Notes under the pieces: model-generated
Database searches by the model: none
What the model was told of the DNA's origin: nothing
The model's input: only the letters and a program-made list of their open reading frames with translations
Shown: piece by piece, positions 6,844 to 30,901 of the stretch
How the letters are laid out: every line of letters begins with the position of its first letter
How positions within the stretch are numbered: position 1 is the stretch's first letter
IMG/VR virus record: IMGVR_UViG_2526164634_000009
Reading direction: 5' to 3' (one strand)
DNA: 42,795 nt
Origin: a virus
Lineage: Duplodnaviria; Heunggongvirae; Uroviricota; Caudoviricetes
Made by a program: the position numbers and the translations under genes

Positions 6844-8382
6844 TTATTCAGTCGGCAGTGCTACGCGCCAGGGGAGCAGTTCGCCGACCCGGTTTATCGG
6901 CCAGTCGGCTATGACGTCAAGGACATAGCGGAGGTAGCTTTCTGGCTCCACTCCGTTCAGTTTGCACGTCCCGATCAGGCTGTACAGCAGCGCTCCCCGC
7001 TCTCCTCCATGATCCGAACCGAAGAACAGGTAGTTTTTGCGGCCCAGACTGACCATCCGCAACGCATTTTCAGCGATGTTATTGTCCGCCTCAGCCCAGC
7101 CATCATCTGCATAGTACGTCAGCGCCGGCCACTGGTTCAGGGCGTATGCGAACGCTTTCGCCAGTTCTGAGTGTCGCGACAGGGTTTTCATCTTTTCACG
7201 CAGCCAGCTTTCCAGGGATTTCAGCAGCGGTTTCGTTTTCAACTGACGTTCGGCAAGGCGCTGCTCCGCCGTCATTCCCCTTATCTCTGCCTCGATGGCG
7301 TACAGTTCGCCGATCCGTTTCAGCGCTTCCTCCGTCAGGGCTGACGGGGTGCGAACGTGCACATCGTGGATTTTACGGCGGGCGTGAGCCCAACAGGCGG
7401 CTTCCGTTATCCGGCCATCCCGGTACAGCTCGTTGAACCCGGCGTATGCATCCGCCTGCAGTACACCACTGAACCCCGCAAGATGGGTCTGCGGATGGAT
7501 GCCTTTTCTGTCCGGGCTGTAAGCGAACAACACCGCCGGCGCCAGCGTTGACCCGGCGTTACGGTCGTCACGAACGTAGGTCCATAACCGCCCGGTCTTC
7601 GTTTTCTTATTGCCTGGCAACAGCACCGGGACAGGCGTGTCATCAGCATGGAGCTTACCGTCAGTCAGCACATAGTCCTGAAGCGCTTCTTCCAGCGGTG
7701 ACAGTAGCCGGCAGCATGCATCCACCCAGCCCGACAGCAGTGAACGACTCAGCTCCACGCCCTGGCGGCCGTACATTTCAGACTGGCGGTACAGCGGGGT
7801 GTGCTCTGCATACTTTGAGATCAGCACGCGGGCCAGCAGCCCCGGTCCTGCGATACCCCGCTCGATGGGCCGTGAAGGCGCGGGGGCCTGCACGATGGCA
7901 TCGCACTGAGTACAGGCATGCTTTTCACGTACAGTCCGGATAACCCGGAAGGCGCTGCGCATCAACTCCAGCTGTTCGGCGGCATCCTCACCCAGATAGC
8001 TCAGTGAGCCTCCACATTCCGGGCAGCATGATGCTGCCGGCAGCAGCCGTTTTTCATCGCGGGGGAGTGATTCGGGGAACGGTTTGCGGGTGCGGGTTTG
8101 ACGCAGCGGGCGCTGCACGGCCGGGTCGTCAACCCGACCGGTAAGGGTATCACTTTCTTTCTGAAGTGCCTTCAGGTCAGCTTCCATCTGTGCGATACGA
8201 CGGGAGACTTTTTCGGAGCGGCTGCCGAAGTTCATCCGGCGCAGCTTATCCAGCTGTGCCTGCAGATGGTCTATTTCGCGTTCACGCTCGTTCAGCTTTT
8301 CCAGCAGGGCACGGTTCAGCGCCTCCTGTTCGGCAAGGAGACGTTTCAGTGCATTGATATCGTCAGGAAGTGAGCTGCTCAT
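6844..8382 (-). CDS. tnpC: IS66-family transposase TnpC
   Basis: 512 aa; N-terminal coiled-coil, CxxC...CxxC zinc-finger segment, DDE-type core. Confidence 0.9.
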
Positions 8383-27227: not shown

Positions 27228-27617
27228 TTAAAACAAAGGGGGGGAACACTGACGATACTTTATACGCCGCATTCGTCGGATGGCTTTATAGACTGTGTTA
27301 AATGTCACACCATGACGGATTGCCAGTTCGTGAACATTGCGACCGTTGAAATCATTCCAGATACGCAAATCCCGAATAAGCGAATCCAGAACCTGACCGC
27401 GTGGAATGTAGACCTGACCGCCGCCCAGATGCTTACAGATAGCCACAACAATCTCCAGTGAATGGGCCGGGTCAACACCTAACCGGGACAATTCCCCGCG
27501 CAGTAAATCGTTCAGCTCCGCCAGCAGTGCCGGAAAGCGTGACGTATCCTCTGCGGGATTGTCAAGATGTGCCAGGATGGTGTCATCCTGCAAATCACCA
27601 AATAAATCTTCCGTCAT
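27228..27617 (-). CDS. mor: Middle operon regulator Mor
   Basis: 129 aa, same family as C, position after GemA. Confidence 0.85.
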   Translation of the reverse strand: MTEDLFGDLQDDTILAHLDNPAEDTSRFPALLAELNDLLRGELSRLGVDPAHSLEIVVAICKHLGGGQVYIPRGQVLDSLIRDLRIWNDFNGRNVHELAIRHGVTFNTVYKAIRRMRRIKYRQCSPPLF

Positions 27618-28165
27618 TGTGCCATCCTCCGTGTCTTTCTGGCACGGGCATAAGCCGCCGTCATGGCATCATAGCCGCGCAGTTCACGCCCGGACGGACT
27701 GACTGGCAACGGAAGCCCGTGACGGGAAAAGGCTTCACGAATACAGCGGATATGCCACTGCTTGAGAGTTTCGAGAACAATCAACAGGGTGTCGCCATGA
27801 CACCACGCCAGCGTGGAAACACCCTGTCCGCCATTACGTTTCGCCGTCAGGCGCTGAACATATTTATCCAGCGCCACATCACCGCCATCGGTAATAAAAC
27901 CGTCTTCTGCCATCTGCTGCCAGACTTTGTATACCTTCTCGCGGGGCGTGACATGCCCCTTAAAGCGGCGACGTGGATGTTTATTCAGCTTCTTAAAGCC
28001 GCGTTCTTTCATGGCATCGAGCACCTGTTCCAGTTGCGTAACCGTCAGCTCGCGGCAACTGATTTTGCCCGTTTTCTGCATCAGAAAAGCGCGGTAAGTG
28101 TCGTCGTCGAGTTGTAGCTCCCGACGGGCGACATGGATTAATTTAATCAGGGATGTGCGATTCAT
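27614..28165 (-). CDS. gemA: GemA-like regulatory protein
   Basis: 183 aa, GGAGG RBS, precedes mor with 4-nt overlap. Confidence 0.75.
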   Translation of the reverse strand: MNRTSLIKLIHVARRELQLDDDTYRAFLMQKTGKISCRELTVTQLEQVLDAMKERGFKKLNKHPRRRFKGHVTPREKVYKVWQQMAEDGFITDGGDVALDKYVQRLTAKRNGGQGVSTLAWCHGDTLLIVLETLKQWHIRCIREAFSRHGLPLPVSPSGRELRGYDAMTAAYARARKTRRMAQ

Positions 28166-28183
28166 GATCGTACCTCCGGAAAG

Positions 28184-28205
28184 AGGCGGTGCTGCAACAC
28201 CGCCT
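28184..28205. other. Perfect hairpin AGGCGGTG-CTGCAA-CACCGCCT just upstream of gemA RBS
   Basis: 8-bp stem, 6-nt loop. Confidence 0.4.
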
Positions 28206-28234
28206 GAATTTACACATCAATCAGAGAGGATTTT

Positions 28235-28501
28235 ATGGAAAATAATGTACAACCTTATGATGTTGCAGGTTATGCGATTGCATCAGCACTGGTGCGCCTT
28301 CTGGTGAAGAAGGCGATCATCACCGCAGAAGAGGGCCAGGCCATTTTCAGCTCTTCAGCAGAGATTTTAAAAGATGCGCCTGCAATAAGAACAAGCCGCC
28401 GCGAAAACATGCAACTGTCAAAGATCATGGAAGACATTATCAGTTCGTTAGACCCAGATGCTGACGGATCTCAAAAGCCTCAAACACATGAGCGTCAGTA
28501 A
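28235..28501 (+). CDS. Hypothetical 88-aa protein encoded antisense to the early operon
   Basis: ATG preceded by AGAGGA; lies in a 274-bp stretch with no minus-strand ORF of 60 aa or more. Confidence 0.4.
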   Translation: MENNVQPYDVAGYAIASALVRLLVKKAIITAEEGQAIFSSSAEILKDAPAIRTSRRENMQLSKIMEDIISSLDPDADGSQKPQTHERQ

Positions 28502-28742
28502 CAATATCCTGGTCTGATAACCCCAGCCTGCGGCGGATGTACTCCTCGCGGGCTGTTTCATTTTGCAGTGCCACTACTGTTTCCAGACGATTCATTTCGC
28601 GGTTGATAATGTCACGGACTTCTCTGGCGGTGAGATTATGCTTAATACCATATTCAACGATAGCGCGAACACGTTCCAGCATCCCTTTTTCAGCCATGAC
28701 GTTATCAATATTAAGGGGAGTAAATTTATCTTCATTGTTCAT
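28440..28742 (-). CDS. Hypothetical early protein
   Basis: 100-aa ORF in operon context. Confidence 0.5.
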   Translation of the reverse strand: MNNEDKFTPLNIDNVMAEKGMLERVRAIVEYGIKHNLTAREVRDIINREMNRLETVVALQNETAREEYIRRRLGLSDQDIVTDAHVFEAFEIRQHLGLTN

Positions 28743-29062
28743 TTTGCGGCCCTCAGAATAAATTCAGGATAAAATTTCAGACTCATTTGCCGTAACACAT
28801 CCAGTGCAGCAACGGCTGCTGATTTATCGTTGCCATCAGCAATAGCGCGGAGATTTTCAATAATCCAGTGAGGACTCAGTGACTCAGCAATAATGCCAAA
28901 CCGGTACGCCATGACCTCATCAATAGCTTTTTCATGAGACGGCTCATATACAAAATTCACAAAGTCATGCACTTCTTTTTTCGGCAAACCACCGGCAATC
29001 AGCAGGGCGGCAAGCTCTTCTGATTTTGAAAATACACCATTATTCATGTCACTCACCTTCAC
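28739..29062 (-). CDS. Hypothetical early protein
   Basis: 107-aa ORF, 4-nt overlap with neighbour. Confidence 0.5.
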   Translation of the reverse strand: MKVSDMNNGVFSKSEELAALLIAGGLPKKEVHDFVNFVYEPSHEKAIDEVMAYRFGIIAESLSPHWIIENLRAIADGNDKSAAVAALDVLRQMSLKFYPEFILRAAK

Positions 29063-29231
29063 AATTCATGCACGCCGTGTCATCGCCCATATCGCAGTGG
29101 TTACATTTCTGCCCGCCACAATGAGGGCACTCTTTCAGATATTCAGGGGATTCATTACCGCAGGTCGGGCATTCCTGTTTCACCGTGGTAAATTTCCCCA
29201 GCCACGAATACGATGTTTCATTGTTTTCCAT
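29049..29231 (-). CDS. Small zinc-ribbon protein (CPTCG...CPHCG...CNHC...CMNC)
   Basis: 60-aa ORF with four Cys pairs. Confidence 0.45.
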   Translation of the reverse strand: MENNETSYSWLGKFTTVKQECPTCGNESPEYLKECPHCGGQKCNHCDMGDDTACMNCEGE

Positions 29232-30376: not shown

Positions 30377-30901
30377 TTAAATACCGGCTTCCTGTTCAAA
30401 TGGAATAATAGAAAAATCCTCAATGCCTGATTTAACTGTAATTCCGGCAACGCCTGCGACCGCTTTCGGTTCCAGTAAAATCGCTTCCTTGTTGATTTCC
30501 TGCTTCGTGCGAATAAAGCGTTGCAGGCCAAGACGCTCCAGCGTTTCCATCACTGCATCCATACCACGAATACTTACTGATGGCGGACGGACCCGCCACG
30601 ATACATCACCGGTGACAAGATTCGCCGTCTTCACTTTGCCGCCGTTCGTCAGTTCGTCGCGGTTCGCTTCACACCATCCCTGAACGCCTTTTGAAAGGGT
30701 TTCAATATCGGTTTTAATCGGTGCAATCCGGGCTGCAAATTTCTCCGTAATTTCCGCGATGGCATCATTCATTTCCGTTTCCAGACGTGATGCTTCGCGC
30801 TGTAAATCCCCGATGCGTTTAATATCGGTAATCACCGCATCGCGGTTTTGTGGCACATAAGCCGCTGCGGCACTTTTGATACGTTTTGCTGGTTTAGCCA
30901 T
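30377..30901 (-). CDS. gam: Host-nuclease inhibitor Gam (Ku-like DNA end-binding protein)
   Basis: 174 aa; matches Mu Gam as I recall it, essentially along its length. Confidence 0.9.
   Translation of the reverse strand: MAKPAKRIKSAAAAYVPQNRDAVITDIKRIGDLQREASRLETEMNDAIAEITEKFAARIAPIKTDIETLSKGVQGWCEANRDELTNGGKVKTANLVTGDVSWRVRPPSVSIRGMDAVMETLERLGLQRFIRTKQEINKEAILLEPKAVAGVAGITVKSGIEDFSIIPFEQEAGI

What the first reader, a model, noticed from the sequence alone, without database searches (positions are those of the whole stretch)
28166..28501. Plus-strand 88-aa ORF with strong RBS embedded antisense in the early operon
Between gemA and the next upstream early gene there is a 274-bp stretch with no minus-strand ORF of 60 aa or more. 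It holds a perfect hairpin (28184-28205) and a plus-strand ORF (28235-28501) preceded by AGAGGA. A gene in opposite orientation inside a Mu early operon would be atypical and is the kind of place morons or antisense regulators sit. I could not assign it to a family.
Basis: inference. Interest (0 to 1): 0.5.

Follow-up and report, generated by a model that had tools for sequence, protein, structure and literature searches.

The report
Phage Mu gene 15, leftward-facing
The 88-codon ORF is a real protein-coding gene, already annotated as gene 15 (gp15) of phage Mu; it faces against the early operon, carries its own ribosome-binding site and terminator, and still has no known function.

Summary
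The window holds a Mu-like prophage that is 100% identical to Shigella phage SfMu in this region. The 274-bp gap, the hairpin at 28184-28205, the AGAGGA site and the plus-strand ORF at 28235-28501 are all present.

The ORF is not new. It is SfMu_16 and Mu Mup15/gp15 (NP_050619), PHROG 8747. In RefSeq Mu it and the repressor gene c are the only leftward CDS in the first 12 kb.

Several lines show it is coding:
- It is the only frame without stops in three clades at about 59% nucleotide identity.
- Substitutions concentrate at third codon positions.
- Its codon usage matches that of the phage's known genes.
- A Shine-Dalgarno site precedes it in all seven alleles.

The rival minus-strand 55-aa ORF (Mu_54 in the revised GenBank Mu record) contains stops in the Salmonella and L049 alleles.

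New here:
- Every divergent allele of the upstream gene gp14 (E15) carries a convergent gp15 homologue.
- Each homologue is followed by a hairpin and T-run terminator on its own strand, inside the gp14 coding sequence.
- gp15 has been deleted in viable phages, so it is dispensable.

The protein is small and acidic. Its N-terminus is predicted with confidence as a two-helix hairpin, with only a sub-threshold SHOCT-like resemblance. The promoter, the timing of expression and the function remain unknown. It is most likely a moron-like accessory gene expressed in lysogens.

The parts
28235..28501 (+). gp15 CDS (88 aa). It equals SfMu_16 and Mu Mup15/gp15, PHROG 8747.
   Evidence: The region is 100% identical to SfMu and 98% to Mu, and the protein matches PHROG 8747 at E = 1e-60. 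It is the only stop-free frame in three clades, with a third-position excess of substitutions. Codon-usage log-likelihood ratio is 0.342 per codon against 0.352 for true genes.
28225..28230 (+). Shine-Dalgarno site AGAGGA, four bases upstream of the ATG.
   Evidence: Seen in the sequence. An SD-like purine run at 4-9 nt spacing precedes the start codon in all seven alleles examined.
28524..28564 (+). Intrinsic terminator of the gp15 transcript. The stem is 28524-28555 and the T-run TTTCATTTT is 28556-28564. It lies inside the gp14 coding sequence.
   Evidence: RNA folding. A hairpin plus T-run lies 12-53 nt after the stop codon, on the gp15 strand, in all seven alleles. 94% of cells are paired and two pairs change on both sides. 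It is kept in L062, where the gp14 peptide motif differs.
28440..28742 (-). gp14 (formerly E15), the convergent partner gene. Its last 62 nt (28440-28501) overlap the 3' end of gp15.
   Evidence: 29 of 32 gp14-homologue loci in IMG/VR carry a gp15 homologue on the opposite strand.
28184..28205 (.). Conserved palindrome or hairpin GGCGGTG-N6-CACCGCC between gemA and gp15. On the minus strand it is followed by TCTTTCC (28183-28177) and then the gemA SD.
   Evidence: The stem is identical in 9 of 11 prophages, and a 6-bp version is kept in a tenth (S6, D108-like), including prophages that lack gp15. The minus-strand T-run reaches 8 T in Salmonella L032.
28181..28247 (-). Stretch equivalent to the 'semi-early promoter' for gemA-mor annotated in the Mu record. 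It overlaps the SD and start codon of gp15.
   Evidence: AF083977 feature 8151..8217. Only weak sigma-70 matches were found here.
28270..28437 (-). Shadow ORF (55 aa), equivalent to Mu_54 of the revised AF083977 record. Judged non-coding.
   Evidence: Its third codon positions coincide with those of gp15. It has 1-3 stops in the other clades, lower BLOSUM similarity and an antisense-like codon score of -0.185. No PHROG or Pfam match.
27614..28165 (-). gemA, the divergent neighbour. Its start codon is 69 bp from the gp15 start codon.
   Evidence: Pfam GemA at E = 2.4e-30; annotation.

Best explanation
The ORF is phage Mu gene 15 (gp15), a genuine protein-coding gene that reads leftward. That is the orientation of the repressor gene c, and it is antisense to the Pe early operon.

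Shown:
- The ORF is translatable and under coding constraint.
- It has its own Shine-Dalgarno site.
- A Rho-independent-type terminator lies on its own strand, buried in the coding sequence of the convergent gene gp14.
- Together these form a compact single-gene unit wedged between gp14 and gemA.
- It is dispensable for phage growth.

Inferred:
- It is transcribed from an unidentified promoter on the gemA side.
- That transcription would be effective mainly when Pe is silent, in the lysogen. After induction, Pe transcription runs head-on through it.
- The terminator keeps gp15 transcription from running antisense into the rest of the early region.

The product is a small, acidic, soluble protein. 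Its N-terminus is predicted with confidence as a two-helix hairpin (residues about 7-46) that loosely resembles SHOCT. It also has a variable third helix and a disordered acidic tail. It most likely works by self-association or by binding another protein, as a moron-like accessory factor of the prophage.

My rough probabilities:
- real coding gene: 0.9
- own terminated transcription unit: 0.7
- expression biased to lysogeny: 0.45
- protein-binding accessory role: 0.3
For: Identity:
- 100% to SfMu and 98% to Mu.
- Annotated as SfMu_16, as Mup15/gp15 in NC_000929 and by NCBI's PGAP annotation pipeline (PGAP) in E. coli genomes.
- PHROG 8747 at E = 1e-60.

Coding:
- An 86-88-aa ORF sits at the same position in E. 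coli clade A, E. coli clade B (50% aa identity) and a Salmonella clade (about 43%).
- It is the only frame with no stops. Third-position differences are 35-42, against 17-27 at positions 1 and 2. pN/pS is 0.28 between the two Salmonella alleles.
- BLOSUM similarity is 153-169, against 105-125 for the shadow frame.
- Codon-usage log-likelihood ratio is 0.342 per codon, equal to true phage genes (0.352 +/- 0.153). The shadow frame scores -0.185.
- An SD precedes the start in all seven alleles.
- The longest open run in the gap lies on the gp15 strand in every allele.

Transcription unit:
- A hairpin plus T-run follows the stop codon on the gp15 strand in all seven alleles.

Linkage with gp14:
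- 29 of 32 gp14-homologue loci have the convergent gp15 homologue. The three exceptions are a deletion, a contig end and a doubtful homologue.

Dispensability:
- Microhomology deletions of gp15 occur in the plaque-forming phages vB_YpM_3 and vB_YpM_23 and in E. coli prophages. A second, independent deletion is seen in FDAARGOS_1058.

Protein:
- AlphaFold2 gives pLDDT 84-92 for residues 11-40, with helices 7-25 and 31-46.
- pI is 4.3-6.0 in all alleles and there is no transmembrane segment.
Against: - No sigma-70-like promoter for the plus strand was found, and none is conserved between alleles.
- No transcript, ribosome-profiling or proteomic data were available, so expression and its timing are inferred only.
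- dN/dS alone does not separate gp15 from its shadow frame, because the wobble positions coincide (pN/pS 0.43-0.57 in both frames).
- Close pairs show weak constraint: Mu against the window has 4 nonsynonymous and 1 synonymous change, and clade B has pN/pS 0.73. Frameshifted and IS-disrupted copies also exist.
- Covariation in the terminator is modest (54 of 500 shuffles reach it). The stem also encodes the conserved gp14 motif IRRRLG, which could by itself explain much of its conservation.
- There is no significant fold or family match that would indicate a function.
Confidence: 0.6

Rival explanations
1. The true gene in the gap is the minus-strand 55-aa ORF (Mu_54 of the revised AF083977 record). 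It would be translationally coupled to gp14, and the plus-strand ORF would be only its shadow.
For: - Mu_54 is annotated in AF083977.1.
- Its ATG lies 2 nt after the gp14 stop codon (TGATAATG). In clade B an ATG overlaps that stop.
- The frame is also open in clade B (61 aa).
- Its pN/pS is as low as that of gp15, because the wobble positions coincide.
Against: - In the Salmonella allele the frame is broken into pieces of 31 codons or fewer, and in the L049 allele the longest early-strand open run is 54 codons against 78 on the gp15 strand.
- It has 1-3 stops in every inter-clade comparison.
- BLOSUM similarity is lower (105-125 against 153-169).
- Its codon-usage score of -0.185 is typical of antisense frames.
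- No SD is present.
- Its start and stop positions are not conserved.
- It does not explain the conserved QPYDVAGY-coding stretch outside it.
- It has no family match.
Confidence: 0.04
2. gp15 matters mainly as a cis-antisense transcription unit. Leftward transcription across the semi-early promoter, the gemA translation start and the gp14 3' end would tune gem/mor and gp14 expression by transcriptional interference or RNA pairing. The peptide would be secondary.
For: - The gp15 start codon lies inside the region annotated as the gemA-mor promoter, and the two genes diverge across only 69 bp.
- gp15 overlaps the 3' end of gp14 by 56-62 nt in clades A and B and in the Salmonella clade, and still overlaps it in the more distant alleles.
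- A dedicated terminator limits how far antisense transcription reaches.
Against: - The coding frame, the N-terminal helical hairpin motif and the SD are conserved across alleles at 18-50% aa identity. This would be unnecessary for a purely RNA-level role.
- Deletion variants keep gemA-mor and are viable.
- No plus-strand promoter was located.
Confidence: 0.15
3. gp14 and gp15 form a functional two-protein module, for example an effector with its lysogeny-expressed inhibitor, or a regulator with its partner. Their convergent overlap would then reflect co-adaptation.
For: - They co-occur in 29 of 32 loci and co-diverge through at least six alleles, with gp14 at 37-100% identity.
- The cassette is hypervariable inside otherwise nearly identical Mu-like genomes. 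The GemA of L059 and L062 is close to Mu's.
Against: - The physical overlap alone forces co-inheritance.
- gp15 can be deleted while gp14 stays intact, both in prophages and in plaque-forming phages. gp14 is therefore not a toxin that needs gp15.
- There are no matches to defence or toxin-antitoxin families.
Confidence: 0.15
4. The ORF is a chance open frame with no function.
For: - The family is narrow, found only in enterobacterial Mu-like prophages, with about 25 clusters at 90% identity.
- There is no known domain.
- Some copies are frameshifted or interrupted.
Against: All the coding evidence above, the conserved SD, the conserved terminator and the confident helical-hairpin prediction.
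Confidence: 0.02

Closest known systems
Phage Mu gp15 (Mup15, NP_050619); SfMu_16; PHROG 8747; 'F-134' of the 1991 left-end record M64097
   Same: It is the same gene. The region is 100% identical to SfMu and the protein is about 95% identical to Mu gp15 (84 of 88 residues). It has the same position and leftward orientation between gp14 and gemA.
   Different: Nothing differs. The function is unknown in every record. The revised GenBank Mu record AF083977.1 has dropped it in favour of the forward-strand Mu_54, a change the comparative data here do not support.
Morons of temperate phages: single genes with their own promoter and terminator inserted between phage genes (for example lambda bor and lom, or the HK97 moron). 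This comparison is from my own knowledge.
   Same: It is a single small gene with its own SD and terminator. It is absent from close relatives, dispensable, and oriented so that it can be expressed while the lytic operon is off.
   Different: No promoter was found and prophage expression has not been shown. Base composition is not anomalous. It overlaps its neighbour convergently instead of sitting in an intergenic slot. It appears to be an old resident of the gp14 cassette, not a recent insertion.
Overlapping exclusion genes olg1 and gene 10 of the Mu-like Pseudomonas phage Fc02 (PMC9936078)
   Same: Both are small genes on the repressor strand of a transposable phage that overlap an early-operon gene on the other strand. 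In Fc02 the repressor-strand gene is transcribed in the lysogen.
   Different: The location differs: in Fc02 the genes lie next to the repressor and ner, not next to gemA. There is no sequence similarity. Exclusion activity is shown for Fc02 and untested for gp15.
SHOCT and SHOCT-like short helical domains (Pfam PF09851 clan; PF22746, PF20612)
   Same: The motif L-x2-L(L/V)-x-KG-(I/L)-IT-x-EE-x3-I lies on a helix-turn-helix hairpin. Sub-threshold hits were found: PF22746 at E = 0.0014 and 0.009, and PF20612 at E = 0.16.
   Different: Scores of 12.6-18.6 bits are below the gathering cut-offs of 24-27. The window protein itself gives no hit. The module is N-terminal here, whereas SHOCT is typically C-terminal. 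Membership is not established.

Membership tests
Mu gp15 / PHROG 8747 | Significant full-length sequence similarity to Mu gp15 and SfMu_16 | tested here: met
   PHROG 8747 at E = 1.3e-60 over residues 1-88. The region is 100% identical to SfMu and 98% to Mu, where the ORF is annotated as SfMu_16 and Mup15.
Mu gp15 / PHROG 8747 | Synteny: leftward gene between gp14 (E15) and gemA, overlapping the gp14 3' end | tested here: met
Moron (autonomous accessory transcription unit in a prophage) | Own transcription terminator immediately downstream | tested here: met
   A hairpin plus T-run lies on the gp15 strand 12-53 nt after the stop codon in all seven alleles. Activity was not measured.
Moron (autonomous accessory transcription unit in a prophage) | Own promoter | tested here: inconclusive
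   The consensus scan found no promoter-like site on either strand in 27900-28900. A position-weight-matrix scan of three alleles and inspection of seven upstream regions found no conserved candidate.
Moron (autonomous accessory transcription unit in a prophage) | Present or absent between otherwise similar phages; dispensable | tested here: met
   Deleted in vB_YpM_3, vB_YpM_23, JCKP02, L037 and FDAARGOS_1058. Other cassettes occupy the site in D108-like prophages.
Moron (autonomous accessory transcription unit in a prophage) | Expressed from the repressed prophage | not testable with these tools
   No transcriptome or proteome data could be reached. Literature searches found none for this gene.
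SHOCT / SHOCT-like domain (Pfam) | Score at or above the Pfam gathering threshold | tested here: not met
   The best hit is 18.6 bits against a cut-off of 27 (PF22746, protein P0006). The window protein has no hit.
Known anti-phage defence proteins (PADLOC) | Match to a PADLOC model | tested here: not met
   No match for gp15, its Salmonella homologue, gp14 or the next gene.
Known RNA families (Rfam) | Covariance-model match in 27900-28900 | tested here: not met
   Only two chance-level hits, far below gathering scores.
Mu_54 (forward-strand 55-aa CDS of AF083977.1) | Open, conserved reading frame on the early strand in related phages | tested here: not met
   Broken into short pieces in the Salmonella allele (31 codons or fewer) and shorter than the gp15-strand frame in the L049 allele (54 against 78 codons). 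Lower similarity and antisense-like codon usage.

The most novel reading that the evidence does not exclude
The gp14/gp15 pair is a conserved, hypervariable, convergently overlapping two-gene switch.
- In the lysogen, gp15 would be transcribed leftward from inside the gemA 5' region.
- Its 5' leader would be antisense to the gemA translation start and to the gemA-mor promoter.
- Its terminator inside gp14 would confine that transcription.
- The acidic gp15 protein would bind a partner, either gp14 or a host or incoming-phage protein.

Together these would set gem/mor leakiness, or confer exclusion or defence in lysogens. Pe transcription would erase this state on induction. If so, this would be a previously unrecognised lysogeny-specific function in the classic Mu early region.
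Probability: 0.12. Interest if true: 0.55.

Novelty: already known. Interest (0 to 1): 0.3.

Why it matters
Mu is a reference phage, yet its two main database records now disagree about which strand is coding between gp14 and gemA. The comparative evidence here favours the original leftward gp15 call. That matters for annotation pipelines that copy the curated record.

The analysis also shows three further things:
- gp15 is one half of a conserved convergent cassette with gp14.
- It has a terminator embedded in the coding sequence of the opposing gene.
- It is dispensable.

These properties point to a prophage-expressed accessory gene and give a concrete, cheap set of experiments. The impact is limited, because the gene was already annotated, the family is confined to enterobacterial Mu-like phages, and no function could be assigned.

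Tried and rejected
Searches that gave no functional lead:
- Pfam, NCBIfam and PADLOC gave no significant family for gp15.
- Foldseek against the PDB and BFVD found no analogue. The only hit was Mu's own old 'F-134' entry. The afdb50 library was unavailable.
- A profile search of PDB sequences gave only chance-level hits.
- Rfam found nothing.
- The genome-contig scan returned one locus only. It was a Verrucomicrobiota porin-like protein sharing the short LLVKKGIITAEE motif, and I rejected it as a homologue.
- The exhaustive profile search of 1.84 billion representative proteins found, besides the family itself, only repeat-protein noise (P0009-P0011).

Analyses that did not resolve the question:
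- Promoter scans, by consensus and by a position-weight matrix, found no convincing or conserved plus-strand promoter.
- dN/dS could not by itself discriminate gp15 from its shadow frame, because the wobble positions coincide. I relied instead on stop codons, similarity scores, codon usage, the SD and the terminator.

Literature:
- Nothing was found on the function of gp15.
- The paper cited for the semi-early promoter (PMID 9454718) is not held.

Ideas considered and dropped:
- A transmembrane or holin-like role. The maximum Kyte-Doolittle hydrophobicity over a 19-residue window is 1.5 or less.
- A DNA-binding regulator role. All alleles are acidic.
- The hairpin at 28184-28205 as part of the gp15 unit. 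It is conserved where gp15 is absent.

Full report
**Context.** In 28100-28800 the window is 100% identical to Shigella phage SfMu and to Yersinia phages vB_YpM_5 and vB_YpM_6. It is 98% identical to phage Mu over 92% of that stretch. The prophage early operon lies on the minus strand. It includes Gam (30377-30901), gp14/E15 (28440-28742), GemA (27614-28165; Pfam GemA, E = 2.4e-30) and Mor (27228-27617).

**Observation.**
- There is a 274-bp gap (28166-28439) with no minus-strand ORF of 60 aa or more. The longest is 55 aa, at 28270-28437.
- The hairpin is at 28184-28205, with an 8-bp stem and a free energy of -15.2 kcal/mol (z = -3.1).
- AGAGGA is at 28225-28230.
- The ATG-initiated 88-codon ORF is at 28235-28501. 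Its last 62 nt overlap the 3' end of gp14 on the other strand.

**The ORF is already annotated, and the records disagree.**
- SfMu calls it SfMu_16.
- RefSeq Mu calls it Mup15/gp15 (NP_050619, complement 7896..8162).
- PGAP calls it in E. coli prophages.
- It defines PHROG 8747 (E = 1e-60).
- The 1991 left-end record listed a frameshifted version as 'F-134'.
- In RefSeq Mu, gp15 and the repressor gene c are the only leftward CDS in the first 12 kb.
- The revised GenBank record AF083977.1 instead annotates a forward-strand 55-aa ORF, Mu_54. It also annotates a 'semi-early promoter' at 8151..8217, equivalent to window positions of about 28181-28247.

The real question is therefore which strand codes.

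**Which strand codes.** The Mu_54 frame is the antisense frame whose third codon positions coincide with those of gp15. It therefore inherits a low dN/dS and tends to stay open. I collected divergent copies to separate the two:
- E. coli clade B (STEC388 and the RIVM strains): about 74% nucleotide and 50% amino-acid identity.
- A Salmonella enterica clade, found only by the exhaustive profile search: about 59% nucleotide and about 43% amino-acid identity.

The results favour gp15:
- The gp15 frame is the only one of six without stops in all clades. The shadow frame has 1-3 stops, and in the Salmonella allele it is fragmented into pieces of 31 codons or fewer.
- Differences concentrate at gp15 third positions: 35-42, against 17-27 at positions 1 and 2.
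- pN/pS is 0.28 between two Salmonella alleles at 84% identity.
- Amino-acid similarity is higher in the gp15 frame (BLOSUM 153-169) than in the shadow frame (105-125).
- A codon-usage log-likelihood ratio trained on 19 long genes of this prophage gives 0.342 per codon for gp15. True frames average 0.352 +/- 0.153, and the shadow frame scores -0.185.
- An SD at proper spacing precedes the start in all seven alleles. Mu_54 has none.

I conclude that gp15 is the coding gene and Mu_54 is its shadow. One caveat applies: pN/pS alone does not discriminate between them (0.43-0.57 in both frames for the inter-clade pairs).

**A conserved convergent cassette.** A profile of gp14 homologues retrieved 31 IMG/VR loci, 32 when L044 from the earlier single-sequence scan is added. 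In 29 of these 32 loci, a small ORF on the opposite strand overlaps the gp14 3' end and matches the gp15 profile. The three exceptions are a deletion variant (L037), a contig end (L043) and a doubtful 28%-identity gp14 match (L044).
- Alleles with gp14 at 49-50%, 43% and 37% identity carry gp15 versions of 79-119 aa.
- These versions share only the N-terminal motif, for example DVAAFTMAGNLMVTLFDKGVISREEATHII and FGITGFMLVGNLMIKLIENGVINMHDAYDII.
- In each case gemA follows divergently.
- Some of these alleles sit in phages whose GemA and Mor are nearly identical to Mu's. The cassette is therefore a hypervariable island.
- The family is confined to Escherichia and Salmonella Mu-like prophages, with about 25 clusters at 90% identity, all named 'hypothetical'.

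**An embedded terminator.** The gp15 strand carries a strong hairpin 22 nt after the stop codon: CAGCCUGCGG...UCGCGGGCUG at 28524-28555. UUUCAUUUU follows it at 28556-28564.
- The same arrangement, a hairpin and then a T-run 12-53 nt after the stop, is present in all seven alleles. The Salmonella, L059 and L062 versions are textbook cases, with 11-13-bp stems followed by UUUUU(U)G.
- On an alignment, 94% of cells pair, against 40-49% when the partner columns are slid. Two pairs change on both sides. With seven sequences this is only modest covariation (54 of 500 shuffles reach it).
- The stem also encodes the gp14 motif IRRRLG, which weakens the argument. In L062, however, the peptide differs (VCRELG) and the hairpin is still kept.
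- The T-run is on the gp15 strand in every allele. On the early strand it reads as an A-run upstream of the hairpin.
- AF083977 lists the same hairpin as a TransTermHP terminator on the forward strand. The position of the T-run argues that it serves the leftward transcript.

gp15 therefore has an SD, a CDS and a terminator of its own.

**The hairpin at 28184-28205 belongs to gemA, not to gp15.**
- The stem GGCGGTG/CACCGCC is identical in 9 of 11 aligned prophages, and a 6-bp version is kept in a tenth (S6, D108-like). Three of the ten lack gp15 altogether. The loop varies.
- On the early strand a T-run follows it directly, and then the gemA SD. The T-run reads TCTTTCC here, CCCTTTTCT in clade B, TCTTTTTC and TTTTTTTT in Salmonella, and TTTTT in the D108-like prophage.
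- It looks like an attenuator or terminator for early-direction transcripts just upstream of gemA, or possibly a protein-binding palindrome.
- The stem never varies, so covariation cannot be tested.

**Promoters.**
- The consensus scan found no sigma-70-like site on either strand in 27900-28900.
- A position-weight-matrix scan gives weak minus-strand candidates. In the window these are TAAAAT, a 17-nt spacer and TAAATT, ending at 28207. In Salmonella they are TTGAAA, 17 nt and TAAATA. Both fit the annotated semi-early promoter and place its -35 element over the gp15 SD and ATG.
- No conserved plus-strand promoter was found.
- gp15 and gemA start codons are only 69 bp apart. A gp15 promoter would therefore have to lie within the gemA 5' coding region, and the two units would be face to face.
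- This is the weakest link in the argument.
- The literature reports that the gem operon is expressed constitutively in lysogens (Paolozzi and Ghelardini 1992, as cited in PMC3820752).

**Dispensability.**
- A 223-bp deletion between short TGAT repeats removes the SD and codons 1-68. It leaves gp14 and the hairpin intact. It occurs in the plaque-forming phages vB_YpM_3 and vB_YpM_23, in E. coli JCKP02 and in L037.
- FDAARGOS_1058 keeps only the SD and the first five codons.
- One Salmonella copy is interrupted by an IS element of the Transposase_mut type.
- The L049-type allele has frameshifted variants.

**The protein.**
- AlphaFold2, run with 6 and then 19 sequences, gives mean pLDDT 66-68. 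It predicts a confident helical hairpin (helices 7-25 and 31-46, pLDDT 84-92), a weaker helix at 61-72 and disordered ends.
- All alleles are acidic (pI 4.3-6.0) and none has a transmembrane segment.
- Only sub-threshold SHOCT-like Pfam hits occur, and only on some members.
- No PDB, BFVD, PADLOC or NCBIfam relationship was found.

**Interpretation.** gp15 is a real, long-resident but dispensable, leftward single-gene unit.
- Its orientation matches that of the repressor gene, and it has a private terminator. Pe transcription must collide with it.
- Expression in the lysogen and shut-off on induction is therefore the most economical model, but it remains an inference.
- The small acidic helical protein most likely acts by oligomerisation or protein binding.
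- Alternatives are that the act of antisense transcription is what matters, or that gp15 works together with gp14.

**Verdict.** The gene is already known as Mu gp15, with unknown function. The useful new points are the resolution of the strand conflict, the conserved gp14/gp15 cassette and the embedded terminator.

Noticed in passing
window 28270-28437 (-); AF083977.1 7960..8127 versus NC_000929.1 7896..8162: The two reference Mu records disagree. RefSeq keeps the leftward gp15. The revised GenBank record replaced it with the forward-strand Mu_54 (AAF01092.2). Comparative data favour gp15.
   Followed up: yes
window 28177-28205: The hairpin upstream of gemA is conserved in prophages with and without gp15. 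Its T-run lies on the early strand, reaching 8 T in a Salmonella prophage, directly before the gemA SD. It looks like an attenuator or terminator inside the early operon. The stem never varies, so the structure cannot be tested by covariation.
   Followed up: partly
window 28524-28564; AF083977.1 7839..7873: The TransTermHP terminator listed on the forward strand of the Mu record has its T-run on the opposite (leftward) strand in all alleles. As annotated, it would terminate the early operon inside gp14.
   Followed up: yes
L032 4236-5444 (Salmonella enterica serovar Aberdeen assembly): An IS element (Transposase_mut/MULE family, 402-aa transposase) is inserted in the 3' end of the gp15 homologue. 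It separates that gene from gp14 and replaces its C-terminus.
   Followed up: no
L027 and L028 3052-3387 (+): Some Salmonella Mu-like prophages carry a second opposite-strand ORF (111 aa) between mor and gemA. It has only a weak DUF3256 hit (E = 0.0055). It may be another leftward insertion in the early/middle region.
   Followed up: partly
L049-L058 and L064; proteins P0053-P0057: The L049-type gp15 allele occurs in frameshifted forms whose C-terminal half switches to another frame. L053 and L054 have an altered N-terminus. This suggests relaxed constraint or decay in that lineage.
   Followed up: no
window 28739-29062 (-): This prophage, like SfMu, has an extra 107-aa early gene (SfMu_14, PHROG 1988) between gp14 and the Cys-rich 60-aa gp13 homologue (29049-29231). 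Mu lacks it, and the similarity to Mu ends at about 28745.
   Followed up: no
L012 2501-2707 (Verrucomicrobiota MAG): The motif LLVKKGIITAEE also occurs near the N-terminus of a 510-aa porin-like protein, and P0012 gives a weak Pfam Porin_5 hit. This is probably the same short SHOCT-like helical motif and not homology.
   Followed up: partly
window 28125-28374: GC skew turns positive (+0.12) only over the 5' half of gp15, within a region that is otherwise negative. This is consistent with a local switch of coding strand.
   Followed up: no
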